Origin: Patescibacteria group bacterium
GTDB taxonomy: Bacteria; Patescibacteriota; Minisyncoccia; UBA6257; JAKLIH01
Assembly (NCBI GenBank): GCA_022705625.1
Contig: JAKJEE010000001.1
Coordinates: 1-47,206 of the forward strand
Direction: 5' to 3'
Length of the DNA stretch: 47,206 bases
The position numbers were made by a program, and so were the translations under genes. Positions 8,581 to 45,630 of the stretch are shown here, in pieces. The number at the start of each line of letters is the position of its first letter. Position 1 is the stretch's first letter. Under the pieces are notes generated by a model that saw only the letters and a list, made by a program, of their open reading frames with translations, did no database searches and had not been told where the DNA came from.

Positions 8581-9540
8581 ATGGCAAAAGTTTTAATTAC
8601 TGGCAGTAAAGGGGTAATAGGCACTCAACTAACAAAGCTATTACAGGCAAGGGGACATACGGTTTTTGGTATTGATTTAAGACATGAACCAGCTGAGGCG
8701 GGCTGAGAACACGAAATGTCGCTTGAGCAGTTTACTTATGCAAGATGTGATGTTGGTAACTATCGACAATTAGAGCGTGTTTTTGAAAAAATGGGCCCTT
8801 TTGATTTTGTCTATCATACGGCCGCTGAATTTGGTAGATGAAATGGCGAGGATTATTATGAGGAAGTTTGAAAAACTAACGTAATTGGAACCAAAAATAT
8901 TATAAGATTGCAAGAAAAATACAAATTTAAATTAATTCATTTCTCTTCTTCTGAAGTGTATGGTGATTTTGATGGTATTATGAAAGAAGAAGTTATGGAT
9001 CAACAAGAAATAAAACAACTGAATGATTATGCAATGTCAAAATGAGTTAGCGAAATGCAAATAAAAAATTCCTTTCTGTGACGAAAAACTGAAACGGTGG
9101 TGGTAAGATTATTTTGCACTTATGGTCCGGGTGAATGATATCATCCTTACAGAGGCGTTCTTGCCAAATTCTGTTACCATGCATTAATGAAAATTCCTAT
9201 TGTCGTATATAGGGGTGGGGAAAGGGGTTTTACCTGAATTGATGACGCCTGTAATGCCTTGGCAAATATTATTGACAATTTTAAACCTGGTGAGACCTAT
9301 AATATTTCTGCAACAGAATATTGTAGTATAAAAAAATTGGCTGAAATAATATGAAACTATATTGGAGCAGATAAATCTCTGATTCGCTACGAAGATTCGG
9401 AAGTAATGACAGCTAAATCAAAAAAAGTAAATGTTGATAAATCAATAAGGGACTTGGGTTTTAAAAATACTATGGCGCTGGAAGAAGGTATTAAAAGCAC
9501 TATCAATTGAATGAGGGAATATTATAATATAAAAGATTAA
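8581..9540 (+). CDS. NAD-dependent sugar epimerase/dehydratase (extended SDR)
   Basis: Absent from the ORF track because many TGAs split it. The joined frame gives VLITGSKGVIGTQL (Rossmann GxxGxxG) and the catalytic YAMSK (YxxxK). Continuous to the TAA at 9538. Confidence 0.8.
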
Positions 9541-14635: not shown

Positions 14636-16051
14636 ATGAAAAAGGAACAAAATAAAATGGAAAAAATAGTAGCGTTTTTAAAAGATAATGGTTTTATAAA
14701 TCTATCTTCCGAACCATATGGTGGGTTTTCGAGTTCATACGACTATGGTGTTTACGGAGTGGAAATAAAAAATAATTTAAAGCAGGCCTGGTGAAACGAG
14801 ATGACAAAACATCACGAAGATATCGTTGGTATTGATTCAGCTATTTTAATGTCACCTCGCGTTTGAGAAGCATCCGGCCATTTATCCGCTGGCTTTGCTG
14901 ATGAATTAGTAGAATGTAAAAGCTGTCATAAAAGATTTAAGGCCGATGAATTAGAAATCCCTTCTTTGGAAGAAAAAATAAAAAAATTGAAAAAAGATGG
15001 CGCTGTTGGTATAAACGAAATGGATATTGAGCTAAATACTAAAATTTGGAAAAAATGTAGTTGTGGAGAATTGATCACCGATTTACCTAAGAAATTTAAT
15101 ATCATGATGAAAACATTTGTTGGCCCAATTGAAAGCGATACCAATGTAGTATATTTAAGAGGGGAGGCCTGTCAAGGTATTTATATGAATTTTTTATGAG
15201 CTAAAAATTCCGCTCGTATGAAAATACCATTTGGTATTTGCCAGATTGGAAAAGCGTTTAGAAATGAAATAACTCCTGGTCCGTTTACTTTTCGAACGAG
15301 GGAGTTTGAACAAATGGATTTACAATTTTTCGTTAAGCCCGATGACGCTGACCAATGATTCGAATTTTGAAAACAAGCAAGAATAAATTTTTATATTAAT
15401 CTTGGTATTAGTAAAGATCATTTAAGGTTTCATGATCACCCTCAAAACAAATTAGCTCATTACGCTAAAAAGGCCTGTGACATTGAATATCTTTTTCCTT
15501 GAGGTTGATCCGAAATAGAAGGCATTCATAATAGATCGGACTGAGATTTAGGTAATCATTCAAAATTCAGTGGCACGGATTTATCGTATTTTGACCAAGA
15601 AATAAAAGAAAAATATACACCCTATATTATTGAAACCTCAGCGGGATGTGATAGGACATTGCTGGCTTTCTTAATTGAAGCTTTTAATGAATTTGAAAAC
15701 GGCCGAAATAATGAAGCTAACAATGTTGAGTATTTATTAAAATTAAACTATCAATTATCGCCCGTAAAAGTTGCGGTTATGCCACTATTAAAAAATAAGG
15801 AAGGATTACAAGTTAAAGCTAGGGAAATATATAATACTTTGAAATTTGAATTTAATACTAAATTTGATGATAATGGCTCAATCGGCAAAAGATATCGAAG
15901 ACAAGATGAGTTGGGCACACCTTGATGTATAACAGTTGATTTTGACACTTTAGAAGATAATTGTGTTACGGTGAGAAATCGTGATACGATGTTACAAGCA
16001 AGAGTTAAAATCGTTGATTTAATAAATTATATAAAAACGCACTTATGCTAA
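14636..16051 (+). CDS. glyQS: Glycine--tRNA ligase (single-chain GlyQS type)
   Basis: [22 protein letters not shown][W], SPRV[W][36 protein letters not shown][W]DL, ETSAG.DR. Bracketed W = TGA. Confidence 0.92.
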
Positions 16052-18431: not shown

Positions 18432-19931
18432 ATGCCCAAAAAAATATTTGTTACTTGCGCTTTGCCATATATTAACGCTGACCCACACTTGGGCCATGTT
18501 TTTGAGTTTATTCAGGCTGATTGCTTCGTCAGATTTAACAAACTGATTGGTAATGAAGTTTATTTTACGGCTGGAACTGATGAAAATAGTTTAAAAAATA
18601 TTTTGGCTAGTCACGAGCACAAGGTAAGTGTTAAGGATTGAATTGATCAAAAAACAGCTTCGTTTTTAAAGCTGAAAGATGATTTTGAAATTTCGTTTGA
18701 TGATTTTATTCGCACCACTGAAGAACGCCACCATTTAGGCGCTCAAAAATTATGGTCGCACTTAGATAAAAATGATATTATTAAAAAAAATTATGAAGGA
18801 TTGTATTGTGTGGGTTGTGAAACATTTTATACCGAAGATGAGTTAGTTAATGGTTTGTGTCCAGAACATAAAAAGGTGCCGGAAAAAATTACCGAAGAAA
18901 ATTATTTCTTTGTCTTGAAAAATTATAAAAATTTTCTAATTAAGAAAATTGAAAGTGGCGAGTGAAATATTATGCCAGAAAGTCGAAAAAATGAAATACT
19001 AAGTTTTCTCAAAGGCGATTTATTGGACATTAGTGTAACCCGCAGTAAAAAGAGAAGTGAGGGTTTGGGAATTGAAATTCCCGAAGATAAAGAACAAGTA
19101 TTGTGGGTATGGATCGATGCTTTATCAAACTACATTAATGTTCTCAATTATGGCTTAAGCGACCAAACATTATTTGAGAAGTGATGAAACCATAGTGATG
19201 AAATATGACATTTCTTGGGTAAGGGAATTTTAAGGTTCCACGCAGCTTTTTGACCAGCATTTTTGCAATCAGCGAAAATTAGAATTCCAACTCATTTATT
19301 CTGTCATGGCTATATCACTGTTAATGGGGAAAAGATGTCAAAATCTTTAGGCAATAGTGCTGATCCTCGTGAATTATTAAAAAAATATCCACTGGATTCT
19401 ATTCGTTATTATTTGATGAAAGATATTCCGTCTGGAGACGATGGCGATTTCAGTGAGATAAACTTAATTAGTCGTCATAATAATGAACTTTGTGCCTCTT
19501 GAGGCAATTTAGTTTCTAGGGTGTTGGCATTGGGCGAACAATATCAACAGCCCATAAAATTAGTCGCCAACGAGTTAAAGCCAGAAATTGATGAATCAAT
19601 AGAAAATTATATTGAATGTTTTTCAAAGGTAAGAACCAACGACGTGGTTAGCGTGTGTTTCGATTTAATTGCCAAAATCAATAAATATGTTAGTGATCAA
19701 AAACCTTGGTCGTTAATTAATACTTCAAAAACCGATTTTGAAAGAATAATTTCAAGTTCGCTATATGGCATTATTTACGCTAATTTATTATTGTCCGCTA
19801 TAATGCCCAAGAGTAGCAAAAAAATATTTGATAGGTTGGATGTACAAATCGCGAGTTTAAAAGATATACCGTTGTTGGCAAACCAAGAATTCACTCTTAA
19901 AAAACCAGAGAATTTATTTAATCGTATTTAA
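18432..19931 (+). CDS. metG: Methionine--tRNA ligase
   Basis: HIGH-type ALPYINADPHLGH, CxxC zinc knuckle (YCVGCE...CPEH), YVW-like VWIDAL, F[W]PAFL, KMSKS. Four fragments are in one frame. Confidence 0.92.
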
Positions 19932-23969: not shown

Positions 23970-24130
23970 ATAACCCTTTGATATTTTTTAAAAAATAGTG
24001 TATACTACGATTAATTAAATTAACCAATATGTTCTATTTTTGATACTGTCATTTACTCTGCTATTATAGCAATTATTGACAAAAAATACAAAAAATATTT
24101 TTGCCAGTATTAGCATCAATTTTTCATTGA

Positions 24131-25246
24131 TTGGTCAATCATACTAAGTTTCTGTTTTTGCGTTTAAATTTAAAAGAGCATACCGAGCTTAATCCTAGTC
24201 GGCTAGCAATTTCAACTTTTATGATTAGTGCTTTGATGTTGTCGTTGATGTTATCCGGCATATCTAAAAACTTTTATTCAACTTTATGGGCTGACGCTGA
24301 CACCATTATAGAAAATGTGGAAATGAATAGCTCCAATTTAATTGCTGAGATACCCTCTATTAATAGTGTCAACCTTGATAGTTATAATTATTATCAAAAT
24401 TTAAATTTAGAAGCTAAATCAGAAAGCTTTTTAGATTTATATTTAATCGAAGATAAAAATTTCTTATTTAGATCGGTGGACATTGGTGATATTGGTGTGG
24501 ATATTACTGACTCCAGCAAAATAATTACGTATGTGGTCAAGCCGGGTGATTCATTAGCTAAAATTGCCAGCCAATTTGATATTAATGTGGAAACAGTTCG
24601 CACTGCCAATTCTTTAAAAAAGAATACTATTACTCCTGGACAAGAATTAATTATTTTACCAATTTCTGGCATCTACTATACTGTTAAAAAGGGCGATACT
24701 TTAAATGCCTTGGCTATAAAATATAAAATATCCGCTAGTACCATTAGAGAATATAATAATTTAGAAGAAGATACCTTAAGGATTGGTGAAAAAATTATTT
24801 TGCCTGGTGCCAAAGAAAAGGTGATAGTGACAAATCCTACTAACATTAATTCGGCAACAAAAATAACCGAAAACAGTGTTAGTGGTAGTGATTTCTTTTT
24901 ATACCCAACAGTGGGTTGAAACTGGGGAACGGCTCATGGTAATAATGGTAATGCTGTTGATATCGCTAACGCTTGTGGAACGCCAATTTATGCGGCCGCT
25001 GATGGAATAGCCATTGTGGTTAAAACTAGTGGCTACAATAGTGGTTATGGATCATATGTGAAAATACAACATAATAATGGCACTTCAACTCTATATGCTC
25101 ATTTAAGCGTAGTCAACATTGCTAATGGTCAATATATAAATCAGGGACAAATTATTGGTAAAATGGGAACAACTGGTCGATCAACTGGTTGCCACCTACA
25201 TTTCGAAGTGAATGGCGTTAAAAATCCATTTATAAAAAAACCATAA
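24131..25246 (+). CDS. Cell-wall metallo-endopeptidase: N-terminal TM, two LysM domains and a C-terminal M23 domain
   Basis: LysM: YVVKPGDSLAKIASQF and YTVKKGDTLNALAIKY. M23: GNAVDIA...GTPIYAAADG...GYGSYVKIQH.NG..TLYAHL...G.TG.STG.HLHFEV. The start (TTG 24131) is uncertain. Confidence 0.85.
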
Positions 25247-25255
25247 AGATTTAAT

Positions 25256-27865
25256 ATGATTAAAAAAATAGCCAAGAAAAGTTTATTAATATTATTATTA
25301 TTTATTATTACCTTGTATGGAGTTTTAACGCCCATTAAGAATGTTCATTTTGAAACCAATACTTGTTCGGCAGCATCAGGAGATGCGTTCCGACCAAAGA
25401 TAAAAACCAATGATGTAGAAGAACAAGCGGTTGATCAGGAATGGTGTCCAGATTGTACAGCAGCAGTACAAGGAATGACTATCTGACGTATGATGGTTGC
25501 GCCTATCGACACTTTACTTTCTTTAATACCAAGACTGCTGGTTTTTATATCAAAATGAATTGTAATTTTGTTTGCCAATATATTACAATCAGCTATGAAT
25601 CCGCGAGCTAATAGTTTTTTGGATGGTATAAATCGTTTTACTGGCGAGGGCAATGTGGCGAGATGAGTTTGACAAAATTCTTTATACTTTGCCAATATTA
25701 TGATTACTTTATTTTTAATTTGAATTGCTATCAACATCATTTTAGAAAAAGCAGAATATACATCTTATCAAAGTTTAATAAAGTTATTAACTGTGGCCTT
25801 ATTAATTAATTTCTCATTGGTAATTTGCACTTTGCTGGTTGATATATCAAATTATATTGCTTCTTTATTTATGTCTGGAGTCAATGGTCAAGCCTTTTCT
25901 TGCACCTATGCTTGTGCTATTCATAAAGTTGCCAATAGCTTCAATTGTGTTGCCGATAAAATGATGCTTTCTCAAACAATTCAAAATAGTTTAGCCTTGG
26001 TGGTAGCAATTATTTTTATTGGCCAGTTATTAGGTTTGATTATTTTTGTATTCACCCGTATGATTTACTTGTGATTTTTGGTTGGCGTATCGCCATTGGC
26101 TATCGTGCTATCAGCCATACCTGAAACCGAAGGTATCTATAAACAATGATTAAATTTGTTTAAAACCAATTTAATAAAATTACCGGCTATCGCTGCTGCC
26201 ACTTATTTTATTCTAAATATTATCTTGTTTATTACTAACCAATCGATGAATACACCAGTTGCCCAGGGCGACGTTATGGAACATGTGCTAACTACCACTT
26301 TTTTGATTATCATTCTGTCGCAAGGACTACTTATGGCTGCTCAAGCCATTGGTGTTGAACAGGTGACTAAGATGTCAGCAATGGTTAATGGCGCAGTCAA
26401 GAAAGGCTGAAATGCGATTAAAGCACCTGTTGCCCAACAATCAAAAAGATTCGCGGCTAATGTACCAATCGTTAGAAAAGGAACGGAAATGCTACAAAAT
26501 AGCAGTGTGCCGTGGATCGCAAAATCGGGAAACAAACTGGCTGCTCAAGTAGCTAAGGATCAGAAAAACGTAGCCACCAATATGGAAGATTTATTCGCCA
26601 ATGCCAATTGAAGATCTTTGGAACGATTAGCCGAAAGTAAAGACCCAACGGTGCGCGTTCAAGCAATGTCTTATTTATCTCAATTAGGATCAAAATATAA
26701 AGCCAAAAATAAATATACTGAAGATCCTGATAAAATTAACGCTATTAAAAAATTGGCTGACGATAATGTTAATATTGATAACTCTGCTGCTTACGATACC
26801 CTTAAAAAAACTTCGCCATTGTTTAAAACTGGCATAAAATCGCTAAGAGGTCAGAAAGGAATAGAAAATATTAATGACACCGTTGGAGAAATTAGTGCCG
26901 CCCTAAACGATGATAAGGGTGCCATGGATATTCAATCAACACTAGACACATTAATAAAAAATGCTGGTAGTAATCTGCCATATTTGATGAAAACTCTTCA
27001 GCGCGATCTTGACCCATATATTCTTAACGGTAAAGCCAAATCACTTGGCAACAAGGGTTATTTGAGCTTAATGGACACATTAGCTAAAGGTATTATTGTC
27101 GCTAAAAAAATAAAGAACAACGAAATCGCTCCGGCTGAAATTGATGATAATTTAAATGGTTTTATGCAGGGTTCGTCCACAGAGAATGCTGAAATGAGAA
27201 ACTATATTAAAAATCATCTTGTCGCTGATGCTGTGGAAATAGCCGAAAGTACAGAATATAATTTCTTTGGCAAGTGAGGAAGAAAAGGCCCGAGTTCATT
27301 TAAACGCACTGCTCAAGGACGTTTGTATATTAATATGGATAGCAATTCTTCTCCTATAAACATTAATAGAGCCAATACCAATAATAACGCTCCACAAAAT
27401 ACAACTACGGAACCAATTGATCGTGGGGAAGAACCTCCTTTGACTAATGATGGCGGTAGACCAACTGGGAGTAGAGACGCTGCTCCAGCCCCAGATAGTG
27501 GTAGGCCAGCTGAGAGTAAAGACACTGCTCCAACTCCAGATAGTGGTATGAGCGATGTAAAAGATGCTACACTATATCATTTTAACGAGTTGCGTAAAGA
27601 AATTAGAGAAGTCGCCTCAGATCTTCAAAAAGATTTACCGGAAATTAAAGATTTAATTCCAAAAATCAATGCGGCAATTAATTATGCGTCTGAAGATAAA
27701 AATAGAGAGTACATATCTTTAAGAGACAGGATAGACGAGCTTAAAACCAATTTAGAGTCAAACACTTCTTATACCTTCTCAACAAAAGATAAGTTAGAAT
27801 TGTTAATTGAAAAACTTGAACAAATGGAAAGATTGCGAGAAGAAAAAGATCATTCGTCAGAATAA
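25256..27865 (+). CDS. VirB6/TrbL-like polytopic membrane protein with a long hydrophilic C-terminal extension (869 aa)
   Basis: Five track fragments (25256, 25793, 26156, 26618, 27323) share one frame and are separated only by TGA. It has a signal/TM N-terminus, at least six hydrophobic helices between about 25480 and 26400, and heads a T4SS-like operon. Confidence 0.5.
27455..27544 (+). repeat. Two tandem 45-bp coding repeats (GRPTGSRDAAPAPDS / GRPAESKDTAPTPDS)
   Basis: Direct comparison of 27455..27499 with 27500..27544. The tract is locally GC-rich. Confidence 0.85.
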
Positions 27866-27940
27866 AAAGCCACTCCTGTTTTTTGGCTAGTCGATTATTG
27901 CGCATGATTAAAACTATATTGTTAATAAATAAAACAGCTT

Positions 27941-28918
27941 ATGTTGACCGAAATCTATATCGGCGATATCATTGACAAACTACCAGACCAGATACAGTCA
28001 ATTATTTTTAGTGATGAGTTAGAACAAATTGTTGACAATCTCTCTTCGATAATAGGCCTGGATGAAGATCAAAAAATGCTATTGTCTCAAAGTATTACTA
28101 CTTTACTAATGGGAAAATATGATTTTGTCACTTTTAAAAATGTGTTGTTAGGTTTTAATTTAAGTGAAACAAATATTAATCTCGCATTAGATTATTTAAA
28201 CAAAAAATTATTTGATAAAAATAAAAAATATATTAATGATGCGAGCTATATATACCGAGAAGAATTACAAAAACTACAAAATCCTAAGCAAGAGTTAGTG
28301 ACCAATTTTAGCAAAAATACGACTCCATCTGTGGTATCATATATAAAAGAATTGGCGGAAACTATAAAACAAAAAGAATCTCACCCAAAAAGCGAAACAG
28401 CATTAGAAGTCATAAACAACGATAATATAGCCGCCGCCGTTAAAACTCCGATTGAAAACACTCTTGCCAAAACCGCTGATCAAGTGGAGCCAACAAAATC
28501 TACTGTGTCTCTTGAACCAGTTAAAGTAGAAGAAGCTCCTAAATTAGAAACACCGGTGTTAGAAAAAAAAGATTCTATTTTGTTACAAGCCATGCGTCAA
28601 AATTCTAATAGTGAAGACAGTAAATTAAATAAATATTATAAAGAGTTGCGTGATAGTTTATCCGAAAAAACCAAAGAAACCAAAAATGTATTTCAACCAC
28701 CGTTCAAATCGGCGACTAATCATGGAGCGCTAATTGAGTCATTTTTGGATGATACTAAAGTAGAAAAAGCTACTTCGCCCGAAGCGAATAATTTGCCAGT
28801 AAATAGTGCCCCAATTAAATATAGTCATTGAATTCAACCAGAAAAAATAGCACAAACTACTGACACTGACGCTCAATCTTTAAACGAAGAAAAAATTATT
28901 GACTTAGGCGATTTGTAA
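27941..28918 (+). CDS. Hypothetical protein (325 aa), T4SS-module-associated; low-complexity C-terminal half
   Basis: ORF 27941..28831 continues through a TGA to the TAA at 28916. No motif was recognised. Confidence 0.5.
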
Positions 28919-28993
28919 AATAAAAATATTGCTAATTAACTGGTTTTATGTTAAATTATAATAAACATTAATAAAAACTAATTTAATAATGTT

Positions 28994-29401
28994 ATGGCTG
29001 ATTATCAAGTGCCACAATTTATCGAAGATGAATCAAGATTAATTGGTCCATTTACAATAGCACAAATTTCAATATTGGTGGTTGGATGTGGGTTGGCTTT
29101 TATTGTATTTAAATTGTTTAAATCTTTTATTGGCATTCCTTTGACGATTATTATTTTGTTTATTACTGGTATATTAACTTTTGGTCGAATGAACGATATG
29201 CCTCTGTATAAAATGATTGTCCCCATGATTAAGCATTTACTTTTACCAAAATCTTATCAATGAAGTCAACCCCACTTTGTAAAAAGCACCGGACAAACTA
29301 CCACCCAAAAGGTTACTAACAATATACAGCCAACTCAAGAAACTCACAATTTTAAAAAGATTGATGATTTAACTAAAATTTTAGATAAGGGCAATGAATA
29401 A
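28994..29401 (+). CDS. PrgI-family (VirB3-like) small membrane protein
   Basis: MADYQVPQFIEDESRLIGPFTIAQ...two TM helices...GRMNDMPLYKMI. This is the characteristic PrgI N-terminal signature, and the gene sits directly upstream of a VirB4-like ATPase. Confidence 0.75.
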
Positions 29402-30077
29402 ACAATCCCGTCCCATAAATAATAAAAGCACACAATATTTAGTGCCAATAAATGAAATTCGTAATAATGTTATCGTATTGAAAAATAGTGCTTTGCGATC
29501 AATTATTGAAGTTGATGGCGTGAATATGGATCTGTTAGAGAATGAAGCTCAAGAAAATTTACTTAGTAATTGACAATCTTTTTTAAATAATCTGGATTTT
29601 TCTGTTCAAATTTTGGTAACCTCCAGAAAAACTAATATTGAAGACTACTTAACTAATATTGAAAATCTTTTACCTAATACTGAAGAAGAAATGCTATTAG
29701 CTCAAGCCAATGATTATATTAATTTTGTGCGCGATTTTGTTAGCAATAATCAGATTATTGATAAAAAATATTACGTCGTGGTACCTTATGATCCAGTTGT
29801 TTTTAAGAAAAGTGCTTTGGGCGGACAAATAAAAGATTTATTGTTCGGTTTGTTTAATTTAAATCGTGAGGCCTTTTCGCAAGACATTATTTTAAGCGAG
29901 AATGAATTTCAGAAACATTATCAGCAACTAATTCTTCGTCAAGAAAACGTCATGGCCCAGTTGCAAAGAATTGGCTTAGATGCGAAATTAGTCACAACTA
30001 ACGAAATTATTCCGCTTATCCACAATATGTATAATCCGGACGTAGCAATAAAAACTGCTTTATCAAAAGATAATTAA
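29394..30077 (+). CDS. T4SS-associated protein (227 aa), possibly a detached VirB4 N-terminal-like domain
   Basis: Its start overlaps the prgI-like stop by 8 nt. The pattern VPINEIRNNVIVLKNSALRSIIEVDGVNMDLL.NEAQENLLSN[W]QSFLNNLDFSVQILV resembles the N-terminal region of VirB4/TrbE proteins. Confidence 0.4.
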
Positions 30078-30085
30078 AAAACACT

Positions 30086-31873
30086 ATGGCTATATTCTCA
30101 TCAAAAAATAAAAAAACCGAGGTTGATCAACTAATTGATCAGAGCCAATCAAGTTATGCTAAAGCCGTGGCTTCGTTACGTGATGTCATTTCGCCAGCAG
30201 GAATAGTTGTCAATACTACTTCCGTGAAATTAGGGGGAACTTATGCTCGCACGTTATTTATTTTAACTTACCCAAGATATTTGAGCCCAGGGTGATTTTC
30301 GTCAGTAATAAATTTTGAATCCGCTAATAATATTTCTATCTTTTATCATGCCATTGATAATTCATCAATTTTAAGACAGCTTCGAAAAAAGTTAGGCGAC
30401 GTTGGTGCTCAAATTCAATTAGAAGCCGAAAAGGGAGTGCCACGTAATCCAGCATTAGAGACAGCTATTGAAGATATTGAAAATTTACGCAATGCAATAG
30501 TGCAAGGCACCGAAAAAATGTTTCGCGTGGCAGTTTATATTACTTTAATTGGCAATAGTGAACAAGAATTAAACGACAATGAAAACAAAATTAACACCTT
30601 TTTAGAAAGTAAGTTGATTTATCCAAAATCAGCTCATTTTCGACATTTTGAAGGTTATGAAAGCACCATACCACTATGTTTAGACCGCTTGGGCTATGGA
30701 ACATTATTAAACTCTACGCCAGCTTCGACTCTTTTTCCATTTATTTCTGCAAGTTTAACTCAAAATTCTGGCATTATGTATGGAATTAATTTAATCAATA
30801 ATAGTTTAATAATTTTCGATCGCTTTAGTTTAGAAAATGCCAATATGTGCGTGTTTGGGACATCTGGTAGTGGAAAAAGTTATGCCGTAAAAACCCATGC
30901 CGTTAGAGAATTAATGATGGGCTCAGAAATTATCGTTATTGATCCAGAAAACGAATATGAATATTTAGCTAAAGCGGTGGGTGGTGAAAGCTATAAAATT
31001 GCGGTATCATCCAAAGACCATATTAATCCTTTTGATTTACCAATTATAACCACTGATGAAACTGTTGGTGAAGTATTTCGTGGTCATGTTTTAAATTTAA
31101 TTGGTTTAATTAAAATTTTATTGGGAGGACTAAGTCCAACTGAAGAGGTGGTTATTGACCAAGCTATTACTTTAACTTATGCCTCTCGAAATATTGATGT
31201 TGAATCCGATAATGCTATAGAAAATATGCCAATCCTGGAAGATTTGACTAACGTTTTAAATACTATGGAAGGTGGGGCTAATTTGGCGGCTAAATTATAC
31301 AAATATACCAAGGGAACTTATGGTCAGTTTTTAAATCACCCCACCAATATTAATATCAGAAATAAATTTGTTGTTTTTAATATTAATGAATTAGAAGAAG
31401 AATTACGACCAATTGCTATGTATATCTTGCTTAATTATGTTTGAAATAGTATTAAAAGAATTATGAAAAAAAGAATTTTAATTATCGAAGAGGCCTGACT
31501 ATTAATGAAATTTAAAGAAAGTGCCAACTTTATGCTAAGTTTTGCTAAAAGAGCTAGAAAATATTATTTAGGATTAACAACTATTACTCAAGATTTGGAT
31601 GATTTTTTGAAGTCACCTTATGGTTTACCAATTATTGCCAATTCGAGTATCAAACTCTTGTTCAAACAGTCCACTGTTTCCATTAATCAATTAGCCGAGG
31701 CATTACAATTAACTAGCGTTGAAAAAGAATTATTAACGCAAATAAATATTGGCTCAGGATTATTTTTAGCTGGCGATAAACATACTTTAGTACAAGTCGT
31801 GGCTTCTTACACTGAAGATCAATTAATCACCTCCGATCCAGCGAGATTAATGTCTTTAAAAAATAAATCTTAG
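30086..31873 (+). CDS. VirB4/TraC/PrgJ-family type IV secretion ATPase
   Basis: Walker A GTSGSGKS (30857..30880) and Walker B ILIIEEA[W] with W = TGA at 31496. N-terminal YARTLFILTYPRYLSPG[W]. Three fragments are in one frame. Confidence 0.85.
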
Positions 31874-31875
31874 CT

Positions 31876-32556
31876 ATGTCTGTAACATTAATTGCGGCCG
31901 GTGTTAAGGTGGCAGGTAAGACCTTGGTCAAAAAGCTCGGCACCAAGGTAGTTCAAAAGGGAGCCAAACAAGTGGCCAAAAAGGGCACACAAAAACTTGC
32001 CCAAGAAGGAGCAAAAAAATTAGGCACATCAGCCGTTAAAAAAAGTACATCACGAGGAGCTACTAATCAGTTTCAAAAAGCTAAAAATTTATACAATGAA
32101 GTAGAAAACACTACAAAAATCAAAGACAATGTGCCGGCCAAAGATGAGCCAGAAAAACAAACTGACACTACCACCGAAACCAGCCACCAAACATCAGACA
32201 CCCAGCCACCACAAAAAAAATCGGAAAGTAAATGACCGTTTTATATTGCAATGTTCTTTGCAGTTATTAAAGATGCTGTGGAAATATGACTTTCGCCGGT
32301 TGCCCCAGTTTTAACTTTCTTGCCCACGATAATTATTACCTCCATATTGCTTTTATCTGGCAAAAAAGGTACAATGAAAATAGTAATATCTTTGTTAACT
32401 ACGCTGGTTGATTTTTTAATGCCGGGTGTCAATATCTTACCAATGACAACTATCGCGGTGTTTATAACTATGAAACCAGATAAATCCAAAAAACTAAATA
32501 TTAATAACCAACAGGTCTCAAAGATTGTAAAAAGTGTAAAAAAATTTATAAAATAA
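31876..32556 (+). CDS. Hypothetical membrane protein: Lys-rich quasi-repetitive N-terminus plus C-terminal TM helices
   Basis: Fragments 31876..32235 and 32320..32556 are in the same frame, joined across two TGAs. The N-terminus carries KKLGTKVVQKGAKQVAKKGTQKLAQEGAKKLGT. Confidence 0.5.
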
Positions 32557-32560
32557 TTGC

Positions 32561-33562
32561 ATGATTAAAAATATATTAATAAAAATAGTATATATCATAA
32601 TCTTCCTGCTAATATTGATCCCGCCAATGAAAGTTTTGGCTAGTAATTACATTTGAGAAGTGAGCTTACCGGGTGTATCTTTGCAACGATTAAATAATTT
32701 GAATGGCTTTGGCGATTTAGTAAATATGATAGTGGGTTTGGCTTATAGAGCGGCCCTGCTGTTTATGTTGTATAAATTAATTGTGGTTGGTTTTAAATAT
32801 ATGACTAATCAGGGAAATGCCGATGTAGTAAAGGCAGCATCAGAAGGATTAAAAAATATTCTTTTCGGGGCTTTAATTTTATTTGGCTCCTATATAATTT
32901 TATATACTATTAACCCCAAACTAACAGAGTTTCCTCAACAATTATATTGTGACCCTAAAATAGCAGATTGCGAAAAGAAAAATACAGGTAAATCCAACAC
33001 GCATGTTTATACTACCTGTCCAAGTATAATTGAAGATCCTCGTGAAGATGAGACCCAAGCCGCGGATGGGGGAACAAAATCCGAAGATTCAACTGACGAT
33101 AACGGCATAAGTCCAACAACGATTGAAGATTTTATCGATGCTAATGACGCCTATTTAGCTCAACACGGTGATTGGACTAGTGCTCAACAGGATTTCCAAA
33201 CCGGCAAAGTTTCTAACAGTGTATGAGAAGCATTTAAATTAATTACCGATTTAAGAAAAAAATGATATTCAGATGGTTGTGGCAAATTGGTGTGAGGCCC
33301 AATCTTTACTAATCACGAAAAACCAGCTGGATCGACATATACTTCTTGTCATGACACTTACGAAGCGATTGATTTAGTGGTAAATGACGAATATGGAAAA
33401 ACGTCAATAAAGTGCACAACTGAATTTCTAAAATATATAAAAACTAGTGGGGTAGCAAGCGCTACGGGGGTAATAATATGTGATGAAACAAATTTTTCCG
33501 ATGTTACTCCTCACATTCATATCTCTGATACTAATTGTAACTCGGGATGTCGTGTTTCTTAA
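32561..33562 (+). CDS. T4SS pilin-like (VirB2/TrbC-like, CPR type) N-terminal domain fused to a Cys-containing C-terminal domain with LAS/M15-type zinc-peptidase motifs
   Basis: Signal peptide, then two TM helices flanking YMTNQGNADVVKAASEG. C-terminal motifs S-C-H-DTYEA-I-D (33344..33373) and H-I-H (33512..33520). Confidence 0.55.
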
Positions 33563-33570
33563 TTAATTTA

Positions 33571-33603
33571 AAAAAGAGAGGGTTAGAATCTCTCTCTTTT
33601 TTA
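33571..33603. terminator. Bidirectional terminator between the T4SS-like operon (+) and jag (-)
   Basis: AGAGAG (33575..33580) / CTCTCT (33592..33597), with an A-run upstream and a T-run downstream. Confidence 0.75.
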
Positions 33604-33605
33604 AA

Positions 33606-34085
33606 TTAAATTGAATTTGATCGAAAACCAATAACAATATACCGATTAGGTGGTTCGCCTTCTGATCAACTATTTAGATCTGGATACAATGATATTTCGT
33701 TATGAATAATCTTGCGATCACGCGCCGACATTGGTTCTAATTTCACCGCTGTTTTAAAAATCATAACTCGTTGAGCTGTTTTCTTGGCTAAATCTTGCAA
33801 TTCTTTTTGACGATTTAACCGATAGCCATTAATATCAAACTCCACTCGACAACGTTCGGTCGTTTGTCCATTAAGATTAGCAATATCAGTTAAAACACTT
33901 TCAAAAGCCTCTAAATTACTACCAAAACGACCAATAAAAATACTGGCGGTCGTTGGCAAGCTAACACTAATTACTAGTCTGGTATTGGCATCATAGCTTT
34001 TAATATCAATGGAAAAATCATCAATATGACAACTATGAAAGAAAACATCCAGAACATTTTTTATTTTTTCGATAGCTAATTCCAT
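33606..34085 (-). CDS. jag: Jag/KhpB-type RNA-binding protein (KH + R3H domains)
   Basis: The ORF continues through a TGA into the conserved R3H end ...RKIIHNEISLYPDLNS[W]SEGEPPNRYIVI. Syntenic with yidC. Confidence 0.8.
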
Positions 34086-43734: not shown

Positions 43735-45630
43735 ATGAAAAAATCTATACCATTGATGTTAGTGGCTTTATTGGTGGTGGGAATATTAACTCAAGGCACT
43801 AAGGTTTTTAATTTGCCTAATTTTTTTGATAAGGTATCAACAAAATTATTTTCCTCTAAAAAAACATTGTTGGCCGATGTAGATTCGTCGCCAGACAAAA
43901 CAATTTCCCCCGTTGATTTAATTACTAGTGATATGGAAACTTGTGCGGTTGATAGTGATTGTCAACTTATCAATATAACCAACGAACCAATGGGTTGTTG
44001 CTATTGTTTAAGTAATATGGACTCAGAATGAATATGACGAGCAGTGAATGGGCAATCTCGATCGAAAATCGAAGAGATTAAAAATGAATATTGTGCTACT
44101 GAAACACGATGTCCGGTGAGTGTTGACTGTAATAAAAACCCAGTTTTACCAATCGACAGGATAGCTAAATGTGATGGTGGAAAGTGTATTGTAGCTAAAC
44201 CAGAAGTTAGCAAAAATTTAACACCAACGGATGAAGATTCGGAAGTTTCAACAGACACCAACAATGTTAATTCGATGTCGGCTACGGAAACAACATTAAA
44301 AGAATATTATTATTGTTCTTTGCCAACATATCAATGCGTAGCCAAATCTATTATAAACAATACGGGTGGCTATCTTTCACAAAAAGACTGTGAGAAAGAT
44401 TGTTCTCAAACTTTAGTTAAAAGCATTGAACTATCAGCTGATATGCTAAAATGTTCGTATAATTCCGATTGTAAAATTGTTGATACCGGTTGTTGCCCTT
44501 GTGCTTGAGGATACACTGAAAAAACTAAAACAGCTATCAATCGTAACTCAGAAAAAACTTTTTTGGCTAAATGAAAAAATGATTGTAATGGAGCAGCTTG
44601 TGTGCAATCGTCTATTAATAATTGTCGTCTTAAGGTTGAGGCCAAATGTCTAAATAAAACATGCACAGCGGTTTGAGAAAAACCAATAAAGCCAGCCGTG
44701 ACTTCAACAATGAATAAATGTATGAAAGATTCAGATTGTGCAATAGCAGAAACTGATTGCTGTGGTTGTGAAAAGGGAGGAGTTGATAATACAAAAGTGG
44801 GTATTAATAAAAGTTATTTAAATAATTTTAAAAATAATATAGCGACATATTGTAAAAAAATGAGTTTAGATTCTTGCGTTTGAAATTATAATCGATGTCG
44901 ATTTGATGCTACCGTAGCATGTAAGAATAAAGTTTGCGTTGTTAATCTAACGAGTCAGGGTTCATCCGGTGAATTACCGGTTACGCCACCTATTTCTTCG
45001 ACGACGACGACTATTACCACTACGACTACTACGACGACCACTACGACTACTACTAAAGCTAGTGCGCCAGTTATAACTGAAGAACAAAGAAAATGCACCA
45101 GTGATGCTCAATGTAGTTATGTTGAAACTGATTGTTGTGGTTGTAAATATGGTAACGATTTTCTAACACAAATGCCAATTAATTCTAAACACAAGTACAC
45201 TTTTACTAATACGCTTACTAAATATTGTCAAGCCAATAAATTATTACCTTGTAAATCAGTTGGTGTCAATAATTGTTTTACTCCCAAAGTAAAATGTATG
45301 AGTGGTTTATGCACTAATATATGAGTGGCTCCGGTCGCCTCGACAAGTGTTACCTATAAAAAATGTACTGCTGATACCGATTGCGTTGTTATTGAAACCG
45401 CATGTTGTGGTTGTGAAAATGGTGGTAATATAGCTACAAAGATTGGTATTCATAAAAACTATTTAACTTCGGTGTTTAATACCTTTAAGACAAATTTAAG
45501 TAAATATTGTCATGCGGTCAATCAAGATAATTGTAGTTCAACTGATAATAAATGCGAGGGTGAACCAAAAGCAGTGTGCGTTAAAGAAGGATCAATTAAA
45601 GTTTGCAAAGTGAAGGCGGCCAATGAGTAA
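43735..45630 (+). CDS. Secreted cysteine-rich repeat protein (631 aa): signal peptide, five ~80-aa Cys-rich modules, poly-Thr linker
   Basis: Fragments 43735, 44044, 44698 and 45325 share one frame, and the gaps contain only TGA. The repeated core is C-x3-D-x-C-x5-6-[TE]-x-CC-[GP]-C. The Ser/Thr tract is at 44995..45054. Confidence 0.75.

What the first reader, a model, noticed from the sequence alone, without database searches (positions are those of the whole stretch)
32561..33562. Pilin-like protein fused to a putative LAS/M15-type zinc peptidase domain
The N-terminal ~125 aa has the architecture of the small T4SS pilins seen in Gram-positive and CPR systems: a signal peptide, a TM helix, a short polar loop (YMTNQGNADVVKAASEG) and a second TM helix (ILFGALILFGSYIILYTINP). 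Instead of ending there, the protein continues for about 200 aa through an acidic linker into a Cys-containing domain. That domain carries S-x-H-x4-A-x-D (SCHDTYEAID, nt 33344..33373), followed about 45 residues later by H-x-H (HIHISD, nt 33512..33520). This spacing and context match the zinc ligands of LAS metallopeptidases, meaning the VanY/M15, YcbK/MepK and hedgehog-type D,D- or L,D-peptidases (H-x6-D ... H-x-H). T4SSs normally encode a separate wall hydrolase such as VirB1, PrgK or TcpG. Tethering the hydrolase directly to the pilin module would be an unusual arrangement.
Basis: partly seen in the sequence, partly recalled or inferred. Interest (0 to 1): 0.7.

Follow-up and report, generated by a model that had tools for sequence, protein, structure and literature searches.

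The report
T4SS pilin fused to zinc wall-peptidase
The last gene of a chromosomal type IV secretion operon in a tiny, probably host-dependent bacterium (Patescibacteria) encodes a pilin-type membrane hairpin joined to a very divergent zinc peptidase-like domain that probably cuts cell wall, and similar pilin-to-wall-enzyme fusions turn out to be common in this phylum though apparently not described.

Summary
Window 32561-33562 (+) is one 333-codon ORF with four in-frame TGA codons. TGA here encodes Trp (code 4), and the lineage matches the code-4 Patescibacteria family JAKLIH01.

The N-terminal part is a signal peptide plus a PF18895/VirB2-type T4SS pilin hairpin. An independent CPR pilin profile scores it at 69 bits, and distant family members pass Pfam's threshold. 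A disordered acidic linker follows.

The C-terminal 150 residues fold confidently (pLDDT 91). The best structural matches in PDB and the viral library are almost all LAS/Hedgehog-fold zinc peptidases, but the statistics are marginal (best E 0.014 and 2e-4). H252, S262-C263-H264, A269, D271, E309, H318 and H320 are invariant in 14 homologues. No sequence profile reaches significance for any M15 family.

The gene ends an origin-proximal operon (M23-LysM, VirB6-like, PrgI, TraC-like, VirB4), conserved in synteny.

The "unusual arrangement" claim is overstated. In a motif-selected set of 57 CPR pilin-module ORFs, about 30% carry recognised wall-hydrolase domains, usually just downstream of virB4. 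The papers I could search do not describe this.

Verdict: a new, clade-restricted LAS-like domain within a recurrent CPR architecture. Activity is untested.

The parts
32561..33562 (+). Whole gene: 333-aa pilin-LAS fusion protein (code 4; stop TAA 33560-33562)
   Evidence: homologues with the same architecture
32561..32641 (+). Signal peptide (res 1-27, predicted cleavage after VLA)
   Evidence: Hydropathy maximum 2.72; N-terminal h-region plus small-x-small site conserved in homologues. Cleavage is inferred.
32693..32935 (+). PF18895/VirB2-type T4SS pilin module (res ~45-125): TM1 53-78, cytoplasmic loop 79-99, TM2 100-118, INP motif
   Evidence: Independent CPR pilin HMM 69.2 bits, E=4e-21; family members above the Pfam gathering score; helical hairpin in the AF2 model
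32915..33106 (+). Linker (res 119-182): three Cys (130, 137, 153), then an acidic stretch; predicted disordered
   Evidence: pLDDT <50 over this stretch; 14 D/E vs 7 K/R; length varies among homologues
33107..33559 (+). C-terminal globular domain (res 183-333), LAS/Hedgehog-like fold, putative Zn peptidase
   Evidence: AF2 pLDDT 91.4, pTM 0.87; Foldseek top hits are LAS enzymes
33314..33316 (+). H252 (GP..T.H motif), invariant; candidate second-shell or catalytic His
   Evidence: Invariant in A4; the role is inferred by analogy with Shh H135
33344..33373 (+). S262-C263-H264...A269-x-D271: first Zn-ligand motif (S-x-H-x4-A-x-D)
   Evidence: Invariant; aligned in register with Shh S-L-H141...A-V-D148, L052, and the M15_4 and VanY motifs
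33485..33487 (+). E309, invariant Glu at the end of the strand before H-x-H; candidate general base
   Evidence: Invariant; strand order matches Shh E177; role inferred
33512..33520 (+). H318-I-H320: H-x-H motif (third Zn ligand plus catalytic His)
   Evidence: Invariant; lies in a beta-strand of the model
33563..33609 (.). Hairpin plus T-run directly after the stop codon: terminator-like site between the convergent operon and jag
   Evidence: 20-pair stem
24029..25246 (+). First gene of the operon: 2x LysM + Peptidase_M23 wall hydrolase (VirB1-type role)
   Evidence: Pfam M23 1.5e-28, LysM 6.6e-28
25256..27865 (+). VirB6/TrbL_3-like polytopic membrane protein
   Evidence: Orthologues in L001/L005 carry PF19590 TrbL_3; the window protein itself has no Pfam hit
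27941..28918 (+). Conserved operon protein of unknown function (325 aa)
   Evidence: Present in all syntenic loci; no family hit
28994..29401 (+). PrgI/VirB3-like protein
   Evidence: Pfam PrgI 2e-08
29394..30077 (+). TraC-like/TrsD-like protein (VirB4 N-terminal-domain-like)
   Evidence: NCBIfam TrsD 7e-10, VirB4_plasma 3.6e-13; PF26593 in orthologues
30086..31873 (+). VirB4-type ATPase
   Evidence: Pfam P-loop_TraG 2.6e-25, AAA_10, DUF87
31876..32556 (+). Conserved Lys/Ala-rich membrane protein of unknown function, immediately upstream (4-nt gap)

Best explanation
The gene encodes a secreted bitopic protein. Sec export and signal-peptide cleavage are inferred to leave a VirB2/PF18895-type pilin hairpin in the membrane, with both ends outside and the short basic loop in the cytoplasm. 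From TM2, a ~60-residue flexible, acidic, Cys-containing linker carries a 150-residue extracytoplasmic domain with the LAS (lysostaphin / D-Ala-D-Ala carboxypeptidase / Sonic hedgehog) fold. H264, D271 and H320 are proposed to bind Zn2+. E309 and H252/H318 are proposed to serve in catalysis. Four invariant Cys probably form disulfides.

The protein is made together with VirB4, PrgI/VirB3, a TraC-like protein, a VirB6-like protein and an M23-LysM hydrolase. They share an origin-proximal, vertically inherited operon with no relaxase or coupling protein.

The most likely role is a peptidoglycan peptidase held at the T4SS, or carried out on it, by its pilin module. It would cut peptide stems or cross-links locally, either in the cell's own wall so that the machine or pilus can pass, or in the host cell's wall at the contact site.

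Shown here: the ORF, the genetic code, the domain boundaries, pilin-family homology, residue conservation, the predicted fold, the operon context and the wider CPR pattern. Inferred: zinc binding, catalysis, substrate, and whether the pilin module polymerises.
For: ORF and code.

Architecture conserved in 14 full-length homologues, with invariant C240, G246, P247, H252, S262, C263, H264, A269, D271, C285, E309, H318, H320 and C326.

Pilin module: PF18895 above the gathering score in P0021, P0022 and P0024. An independent CPR profile gives 69 bits. It is the only pilin module in the 47-kb window.

Fold: the C-domain model has pLDDT 91.4. The top 21 PDB hits are all LAS-fold proteins: ChiX E=0.014 prob 0.96, LysB4, Ply500, Hedgehog-N, VldE, RB49 endolysin and LysECD7; T5 endolysin (rank 24) and LdcB (rank 28) follow a little lower. 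The best viral hit has E=2e-4, prob 1.0, TMq 0.57, followed by L-Ala-D-Glu peptidase and M15A proteins. A second model built from a different alignment gives LAS proteins as its top 9 hits.

The order of secondary-structure elements is strand(D271) - helix - strand(E309) - strand(H318/H320), which mirrors the Shh order D148 - helix - E177 - H181/H183.

Motif register is the same against Shh, L052, M15_4 and VanY. All 6 known LAS sequences rank in the top 10 of 58 non-family sequences, P=5e-6.

Operon and synteny.

Precedents: CPR pilin modules fused to VanY, M15_4, M23, SLT, lysozyme and amidase domains, located downstream of virB4. The essential protein SEML1_0007, encoded next to virB4 in Southlakia, has a Hedgehog-fold (ECOD e6n7gC1) C-terminal domain (PMC10633639).
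Against: No sequence-profile method reaches significance for any LAS/M15 family. Pfam and NCBIfam find nothing on the target. The PDB profile search finds nothing. hhalign aligns only the 16-19-residue motif, with E=0.03-0.4.

Foldseek E-values against PDB are marginal (at best 0.014), with TM 0.38-0.53 and rmsd 4-7 A. The aligned region of the best viral hit, which is named GH19, is not reported.

I could not inspect model coordinates, so clustering of H264, D271 and H320 around a metal site was not verified.

Hedgehog-N shows that an intact LAS zinc site can serve a non-hydrolytic role.

The operon already has an M23-LysM hydrolase, so a second one is not strictly needed for machine assembly.

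Nothing shows that a pilin carrying a 20-kDa domain can polymerise.
Confidence: 0.62

Rival explanations
1. The C-terminal LAS-like domain is not an enzyme. It is a binding or adhesin module, used as Hedgehog-N uses the same fold, that recognises a wall peptide or a host surface ligand. The pilin module displays it for attachment.
For: Hedgehog-N domains are among the best structural matches. Many CPR pilin extensions are Cys-rich domains with no enzymatic signature. Gram-positive T4SSs rely on adhesins (PMC12102498).
Against: The metal ligands, the candidate general-base Glu (E309) and two further His (H252, H318) are all invariant down to 25% identity, which is the pattern expected under selection for catalysis. 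Sister architectures carry bona fide catalytic families at the same position: VanY, M15_4, SLT and Amidase_2.
Confidence: 0.15
2. The pilin-like hairpin is only a membrane anchor derived from a pilin and never polymerises. The protein is then a membrane-tethered VirB1-type housekeeping hydrolase for the cell's own wall.
For: At 333 aa the protein is far larger than typical VirB2 pilins (about 100-185 aa in Southlakia). The target's own sequence misses the PF18895 threshold. The linker is long and disordered, as in tethered enzymes.
Against: It is the only VirB2-like gene in the 47-kb window and in the conserved operon, whereas T4SS pilins are essential in the one CPR tested (PMC10633639). The hairpin keeps the conserved pilin-family residues. 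The rest of the genome was not available, so other pilins may exist elsewhere.
Confidence: 0.3
3. The protein is a precursor. The highly conserved Y-x-IL-x-T-I-N-P-x-L junction after TM2 is a processing site, as in C-terminal maturation of TrbC/VirB2. Cleavage would release a free secreted peptidase (an effector against the host wall) and a mature short pilin.
For: The INP junction is nearly invariant across CPR fusion proteins while the downstream domains are swapped. C-terminal processing of VirB2/TrbC-type pilins is established knowledge (recalled, not tested here).
Against: The loci were selected with that very motif, so its invariance in the sample is circular. N-P at a helix end is also a plain membrane-interface cap. 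No candidate protease was identified in the operon.
Confidence: 0.1
4. The fusion is an artefact: two adjacent genes (pilin and hydrolase) joined by a sequencing or assembly error, or by wrongly reading TGA as sense.
For: Four in-frame TGA codons; under table 11 the frame is broken.
Against: TGA=Trp is supported by three independent conserved proteins and by a published report for this lineage. The same single ORF occurs in independent assemblies from NCBI, ENA, JGI and Logan, with varying linker lengths. One member (L010) has no in-frame TGA at all.
Confidence: 0.01

Closest known systems
Patescibacteria PF18895 pilin-module proteins fused to VanY / Peptidase_M15_4 / M23 domains (e.g. loci L022, L059, L027 found here)
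   Same: Same layout: signal peptide, PF18895 hairpin ending in Y-x-IL-x-T-INP, linker, then a C-terminal LAS-superfamily wall peptidase. Same genomic slot, 1-3 kb downstream of virB4 in the PrgI / TraC-like / VirB4 operon, often next to yidC and dnaA.
   Different: Their catalytic domains are recognised by Pfam at E=1e-11 to 1e-17 and use the VanY-type second motif (E-x-x-H) or the M15_4 type. The target's domain cannot be detected by any profile, has the H-x-H second motif of Hedgehog/M15A type and extra invariant Cys, and is confined to about 19 cluster representatives out of 1.84 billion.
SEML1_0007 of Ca. Southlakia epibionticum (Saccharibacteria) T4SS locus (Wang et al. 2023, PMC10633639)
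   Same: Encoded immediately downstream of virB4 in an origin-proximal CPR T4SS cluster. Its C-terminal ~155 residues are assigned to the Hedgehog/DD-peptidase ECOD domain, with 'Peptidase M15B' structural neighbours. It is essential for epibiotic growth.
   Different: It is 1113 aa rather than 333 aa. Whether its N-terminus contains a pilin module was not examined. Southlakia has a separate array of six short PF18895 pilins, whereas the window has none other than the target.
LAS-fold zinc peptidases: ChiX (5OPZ), Ply500 (2VO9), LysB4 (6AKV), phage T5/RB49 L-Ala-D-Glu peptidases, Streptomyces M15A DD-carboxypeptidase, Hedgehog N-domain
   Same: Predicted fold. S-x-H-x(n)-A-x-D first motif. H-x-H second motif (as in Hedgehog, 'HIH'). 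A Glu on the preceding strand. Extracytoplasmic location.
   Different: 10-16% identity. No significant sequence or profile match. An N-terminal three-helix extension. Four invariant Cys, including C263 adjacent to the ligand H264. Attachment to a membrane hairpin.
VirB2/TrbC conjugative pilins (PF04956) and CPR T4SS_pilin (PF18895)
   Same: Signal peptide, two hydrophobic helices, a short basic cytoplasmic loop, and a gene located in a T4SS cluster. There are weak TrbC hits in family members.
   Different: Classical pilins end a few residues after helix 2 (or are trimmed or cyclised). This one continues for 215 residues.
T4SS wall hydrolases of monoderms: PrgK (pCF10), CwlT (ICEBs1), TcpG (pCW3), VirB1
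   Same: A wall-degrading enzyme encoded within a T4SS operon. PrgK is also membrane-anchored.
   Different: Those use SLT/muramidase, CHAP/NlpC-P60 or LytM domains and an ordinary single TM anchor, not a pilin hairpin. Their T4SSs lack pilins (statements about these systems are taken from PMC12102498 and PMC12857230).

Membership tests
T4SS_pilin (PF18895) / VirB2-like pilins | Profile match at or above Pfam's gathering score (26.6 bits) | tested here: inconclusive
   The target itself has no hit at E<=0.1, and its close relatives score only 16-21 bits. Distant full-length family members P0021, P0022 and P0024 score 33-35 bits over profile positions 2-70 of 71. An independent profile of 61 CPR pilin modules, in a sample where 40 of 57 hit PF18895, scores the target at 69 bits, E=4e-21. 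Membership therefore holds by transitive homology.
T4SS_pilin (PF18895) / VirB2-like pilins | Signal peptide followed by two hydrophobic helices separated by a short basic loop | tested here: met
   Hydropathy and charge; AF2 helices 28-60 and 65-95 of P0001, which are window residues 50-82 and 87-117
T4SS_pilin (PF18895) / VirB2-like pilins | Encoded within a T4SS gene cluster near virB4 | tested here: met
   685 nt downstream of the virB4 stop codon, in the same operon; conserved in all syntenic loci
T4SS_pilin (PF18895) / VirB2-like pilins | Small protein (about 100-185 aa) ending shortly after helix 2 | tested here: not met
   333 aa, with 215 residues after TM2. However, 63 of 71 motif-selected CPR pilin-module ORFs also have extensions of at least 100 aa.
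T4SS_pilin (PF18895) / VirB2-like pilins | Polymerises into an extracellular pilus | not testable with these tools
   Needs cryo-ET or proteomics of filaments
LAS zinc peptidases (MEROPS clan MD: M15, M74, Hedgehog; with M23 as the related 'L' of LAS) | H-x(3-8)-D and H (H-x-H or E/D-x-x-H) metal-ligand motifs, conserved | tested here: met
   S262-x-H264-x4-A269-x-D271 and H318-x-H320 are invariant in 14 homologues; two members have H-x8-D
LAS zinc peptidases (MEROPS clan MD: M15, M74, Hedgehog; with M23 as the related 'L' of LAS) | LAS fold (central antiparallel sheet with the ligands on adjacent strands, helices on one face) | tested here: met
   Predicted structure only. pLDDT 91. The top 21 PDB hits, the named viral hits and the top 9 hits of a second model are all LAS-fold proteins. 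Statistics are marginal: E 0.014 to 0.1 against PDB, 2e-4 against viral structures, TM 0.4-0.57.
LAS zinc peptidases (MEROPS clan MD: M15, M74, Hedgehog; with M23 as the related 'L' of LAS) | Significant sequence or profile similarity to a curated member family (Peptidase_M15, M15_2/3/4, VanY, HH_signal, M74) | tested here: not met
   Pfam and NCBIfam give none. The best hits in any member are M15_4 E=0.16 and M15_3 E=0.25. PDB profile search gives none. hhalign gives E=0.03-0.4 over the motif only. Rank enrichment of known LAS sequences has P=5e-6, but it is driven by the motif.
LAS zinc peptidases (MEROPS clan MD: M15, M74, Hedgehog; with M23 as the related 'L' of LAS) | Spatial clustering of the three ligands around one Zn2+; zinc-dependent peptidase activity | not testable with these tools
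VirB1-type T4SS lytic transglycosylases (SLT) | Lysozyme-like/SLT fold with a catalytic Glu | tested here: not met
   No SLT or lysozyme hits by Pfam or Foldseek. The resemblance to VirB1 is in role only.

The most novel reading that the evidence does not exclude
The pilin module really does polymerise (or caps the filament). The T4SS pilus of these host-dependent Patescibacteria would then be a 'lytic pilus': a filament whose outer surface or tip carries wall-degrading enzymes on flexible linkers. The C-terminal enzyme would be swapped between lineages (VanY, M15_4, M23, SLT, lysozyme, amidase, and this new LAS-like domain) to match the peptidoglycan chemistry of each host. This would explain why CPR T4SSs, alone among monoderm systems, have pilins. 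It would explain why most CPR genomes with VirB2 lack a recognisable VirB1. It could also contribute to why the T4SS is essential for epibiotic growth.
Probability: 0.15. Interest if true: 0.85.

Novelty: new variant of a known kind. Interest (0 to 1): 0.5.

Why it matters
The T4SS of Patescibacteria is essential for epibiotic growth in the one species tested. It is unusual among monoderm systems in having pilins, and its function is unknown: there is no relaxase or coupling protein.

In the slot after virB4, the pilin module is commonly joined to a wall-degrading domain. In this lineage that domain is a LAS-like one invisible to profile searches. This gives a concrete, testable idea of what the machine does at the cell surface: local breaching of peptidoglycan, possibly the host's.

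It also bears on the published inference that the CPR VirB2 pilus does not need a VirB1 homologue. The hydrolase may often be part of the pilin gene itself.

For annotation, it defines a new clade-restricted domain family (about 19 cluster representatives) that could be added to the Hedgehog/DD-peptidase clan. It also shows that genes in code-4 CPR genomes are split if they are called with table 11.

Tried and rejected
1. Table 11 and code 25 readings were rejected. TGA aligns with conserved Trp, and never with Gly, in GlyRS, MetRS and the SDR epimerase.

2. Pfam and NCBIfam searches on the target gave no hits. The profile of the C-domain against PDB sequences gave only a chance hit, E=0.84.

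3. hhalign of the C-domain profile against Shh-N, L052 and an M15_4 domain aligned only the 16-19-residue motif, with E=0.4, 0.029 and 0.13. The register is informative but none is significant.

4. I tried to build a bridging family from L052's Hedgehog-like domain, but it is an orphan in 5.8 billion proteins.

5. The window protein with Trp at TGA could not be submitted to structure prediction or the search of protein representatives. I used P0001, the same protein from another assembly with one residue different in the fragment.

6. A Foldseek search for the pilin hairpin (full-length model) returned only generic helical hairpins such as histidine-kinase DHp domains and no pilin structures. 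This is uninformative, although the Southlakia study assigned its PF18895 pilins to the same ECOD class.

7. A mobile-element (ICE or plasmid) origin was rejected. The cluster sits at the same chromosomal site, between ksgA and jag/yidC/rnpA/dnaA, in relatives down to about 40% identity and in the ~25-28% members L010/L011. No relaxase or coupling protein is in the operon.

8. The first pilin-module HMM included the target's own family, which is circular. I repeated it without them (then 54).

9. The coding-density ratio (code 4 vs code 11) did not separate the code-4 loci clearly from standard-code loci, so I did not use it.
Full report
OBSERVATION

Window 32561-33562 (+) is a single open frame of 333 sense codons ending in TAA. 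It has four in-frame TGA codons at residues 32, 222, 235 and 245. TGA is a sense codon throughout the window: coding capacity in ORFs of at least 100 aa rises from 8,730 to 16,432 residues when TGA is read through.

To decide between Trp (code 4) and Gly (code 25), I aligned three conserved window proteins with solved homologues, marking the TGA positions as X.
- GlyRS: TGA falls on the conserved W of 'VW-ASGH', 'EW..YW' and 'W-ELEGI'.
- MetRS: TGA falls on the W of 'YWPAFL'.
- SDR epimerase: 4 of 9 TGA positions fall on W and none on G.

The code is therefore 4.

The hydropathy scan and charge counts give a signal peptide (1-27), TM1 (53-78), a 21-residue net-positive loop, TM2 (100-118), an acidic linker with three Cys (119-182), and a 151-residue C-terminal region.

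WHO CARRIES IT

A word-indexed search of 5.8 billion proteins found 10 relatives. An exhaustive HMM search of 1.84 billion cluster representatives with the C-domain profile found only 19 at E<=0.001. The full-length members are all about 300-350 aa with the same layout.

In 14 full-length sequences down to 25% identity, the following are invariant in window numbering: C240, G246, P247, H252, S262, C263, H264, A269, D271, C285, E309, H318, H320 and C326. Linker length and sequence vary freely. So the fusion is not an assembly or gene-calling artefact. One member (L010) has no in-frame TGA at all.

A scan of one genome per GTDB species found full-length matches in only 6 of 185,579 species, all labelled Patescibacteria/CPR. 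The closest NCBI contig is JAKLIH010000009.1. A 2026 preprint reports family JAKLIH01 (class Minisyncoccia) as the first Patescibacteria lineage with UGA=Trp, which fits the window.

CONTEXT

The gene is the last of eight co-directional genes spanning 24029-33562:
- 2xLysM + Peptidase_M23
- a VirB6/TrbL_3-like polytopic protein
- an unknown 325-aa protein
- PrgI/VirB3-like
- TraC-like/TrsD-like
- VirB4
- an unknown Lys-rich membrane protein
- the target

A promoter-like site precedes the first gene, and a 20-pair hairpin with a T-run follows the target's stop codon directly.

The cluster lies between ksgA and jag/yidC/rnpA/dnaA. It is at the same place in relatives down to about 40% identity and in the more distant L010 and L011. 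It is therefore chromosomal and vertically inherited, with no relaxase or coupling protein in the operon.

This is the Patescibacteria T4SS described by Quinonero-Coronel et al. 2025 (PMC12102498). It is of the MPF-FATA type, often lies next to dnaA, dnaN, rnpA and ksgA, and has VirB2-like PF18895 pilins. Such a system is essential for epibiotic growth of Ca. Southlakia epibionticum (PMC10633639).

N-TERMINAL MODULE

Pfam does not detect the target itself. Family members P0021, P0022 and P0024 hit T4SS_pilin (PF18895) at 33-35 bits (cut-off 26.6) over essentially the whole model, with weaker TrbC/VirB2 hits.

I built a profile from 61 CPR pilin modules, excluding the target's own family. It scores the target's residues ~45-124 at 69 bits (E=4e-21 among the window's 255 ORFs). 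The alignment runs through TM1, the G-x-x-Y-x-T-x-G-N loop and TM2, and nothing else in the window scores.

The full-length AF2 model shows a two-helix hairpin (pLDDT 70-83), a ~45-residue stretch with pLDDT below 50, and then the globular domain at pLDDT ~90.

I conclude that the N-terminal part is a bona fide PF18895-type pilin module. Whether it polymerises cannot be told from sequence.

C-TERMINAL DOMAIN

The AF2 model of residues 183-333 (10-sequence alignment) has pLDDT 91.4 and pTM 0.87.

Foldseek against PDB returns LAS-fold proteins for the first 21 ranks:
- ChiX L-Ala-D-Glu endopeptidase (E=0.014, prob 0.96)
- the LysB4 and Ply500 endolysins
- Hedgehog N-domains
- VldE
- RB49 peptidase
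- LysECD7

The T5 peptidase (rank 24) and LdcB (rank 28) follow a little lower. The viral library gives E=2e-4, prob 1.0 and TMq 0.57 for a multidomain phage lysin, followed by named L-Ala-D-Glu peptidase, M15A and 'D-Ala-D-Ala carboxypeptidase' proteins. A second model built from a different, more diverse alignment has LAS proteins as its top 9 hits.

The order of elements in the model is strand (A-I-D271-L-V-V), helix, strand (V-I-I-C-D-E309), strand (H318-I-H320-I-S-D).

The sequence-level evidence is weak. hhalign aligns only the S-x-H...A-x-D motif, always in the same register:
- Shh: E=0.4
- the Hedgehog-like domain of L052: E=0.029
- an M15_4 domain: E=0.13

With a broader family profile, all six known LAS sequences in a 58-sequence test set rank in the top ten (P=5e-6). 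That signal is driven by the motif, and two of the six are close relatives.

My reading is that the domain very probably has the LAS fold with an intact metal and catalytic site. By sequence, however, it is a new family and not a member of any curated M15 family. I could not inspect coordinates, so the geometry of the site is inferred.

THE WIDER PATTERN

The genome scan also returned 74 CPR loci that share only the pilin module. Contrary to the expectation that such pilins are ~100-aa proteins, 63 of 71 ORFs carrying the Y-x-IL-x-T-INP motif continue for at least 100 residues after it (median 198).

Pfam on 57 standard-code examples gave:
- PF18895 in 40
- SLT in 4
- VanY in 3
- M23 in 2
- Amidase_2 in 2
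- Phage_lysozyme in 2
- SLT_3 in 2
- Peptidase_C39_2, Peptidase_M15_4 and 3D in 1 each

That is up to 18 of 57 (about 30%) with a recognised wall-hydrolase domain. The rest are mostly Cys-rich and unassigned. Some of the unassigned ones look like further hidden LAS domains: L052 has 'SLHYAGRAVD...GHIHVEY', and the L014 group has 'SACHSLGTCVD...FHLE'.

In about 41 of the 74 loci, a virB4 with PrgI and TraC-like genes lies 1-3 kb upstream on the same strand, often followed by yidC and dnaA. So the slot after virB4 in the CPR T4SS operon commonly holds a pilin module with an exchangeable, often wall-lytic, C-terminal domain. The target is the version found in the JAKLIH01-like clade.

One caveat: the loci were picked with a peptide motif taken from the target family. 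The sample may therefore over-represent extension-bearing pilins. Southlakia's six pilins are short.

In Southlakia the essential protein encoded next to virB4 (SEML1_0007) ends in a domain assigned to the Hedgehog ECOD family, which is a further precedent for a LAS domain in this machine.

The two papers that treat CPR T4SS components, and the 2025 T4SS review, do not mention pilin-hydrolase fusions. One infers that the VirB2 pilus does not need VirB1 because most genomes lack it. My searches cover only open-access text.

MECHANISM

The best-supported reading (confidence about 0.6) is this. The protein is exported and anchored by, or assembled through, its pilin hairpin, with both ends outside the membrane. 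The LAS domain, on a ~60-residue flexible tether, cleaves peptidoglycan peptides next to the T4SS.

Still open is whether the target wall is the cell's own or the host's. Also open is whether the protein stays in the membrane, is built into a pilus, or is cleaved at the INP junction.

The rivals are listed separately: a non-catalytic binding domain, a mere membrane anchor, and a processed precursor. The artefact explanation is excluded.

NOVELTY AND SCORE

The kind of thing, a wall hydrolase belonging to a T4SS, is known. The variant is not described in the literature I could search: the hydrolase is part of the pilin gene, and here it is a LAS-like domain that no profile detects.

The specific family is tiny and clade-restricted, and all functional claims rest on computation. 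The general pattern can be seen from Pfam domain hits once one looks.

I rate it 'new variant of a known kind', with interest 0.5.

Noticed in passing
whole window (e.g. 14636-16051, 18432-19931, 8581-9540): The window uses TGA=Trp (code 4) although it belongs to Patescibacteria, where only TGA=Gly (code 25) was classically known. The closest NCBI relative is contig JAKLIH010000009.1, and GTDB family JAKLIH01 was reported in a 2026 preprint as the first code-4 Patescibacteria lineage. None of the 7 tRNA genes in the window is tRNA-Trp(UCA).
   Followed up: yes
window 43735-45630 (+): A 631-aa secreted, very Cys-rich protein. It has about five repeats of a 'C..D.DC...ETDCCGC..GG' module and a poly-Thr tract. 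It has no Pfam hit.
   Followed up: partly
window 31876-32556 (+): A conserved 217-266-aa protein with a Lys/Ala-rich N-terminus and C-terminal hydrophobic helices. It always lies between virB4 and the pilin-LAS gene in syntenic loci, and has no family assignment in Pfam or NCBIfam.
   Followed up: partly
window 27941-28918 (+) and 25256-27865 (+): There is a conserved unknown 325-aa operon protein between the VirB6-like and PrgI genes. The VirB6/TrbL_3-like protein has a long C-terminal extension with Pro/Asp/Ser-rich repeats (GGRPTGSRDAAPAPDSGRPAESKDTAPTPDSG).
   Followed up: no
loci L012-L085 (GTDB Patescibacteria representatives): The gene slot 1-3 kb downstream of virB4 commonly holds a PF18895 pilin module with swapped C-terminal domains: VanY, M15_4, M23, SLT, SLT_3, Phage_lysozyme, Amidase_2, Peptidase_C39_2, 3D, and many Cys-rich unknowns. 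This recurrent architecture is not mentioned in the CPR T4SS papers I could read.
   Followed up: partly
L052:9815-10825 (AP024682.1, Ca. Parcubacteria KatS3mg098, complete genome): A pilin fusion whose C-terminal domain carries near-Hedgehog motifs (SLHYAGRAVD ... VFCED ... GGHIHVEY). It has no Pfam hit beyond the pilin, and no homologue in 5.8 billion proteins apart from itself.
   Followed up: partly
L014, L015, L017, L032, L037 (pilin-module ORFs): A five-member cluster of pilin extensions with 'SACHSLGTCVD' and 'GSGFHLE' motifs. It ranks next to the known LAS domains with the target-family profile, so it is probably another LAS-type family that Pfam does not detect.
   Followed up: no
window 33563-33609: A 20-pair A/T-rich hairpin with T-runs on both sides, lying between the convergent T4SS operon and jag. 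It looks like a bidirectional terminator.
   Followed up: no
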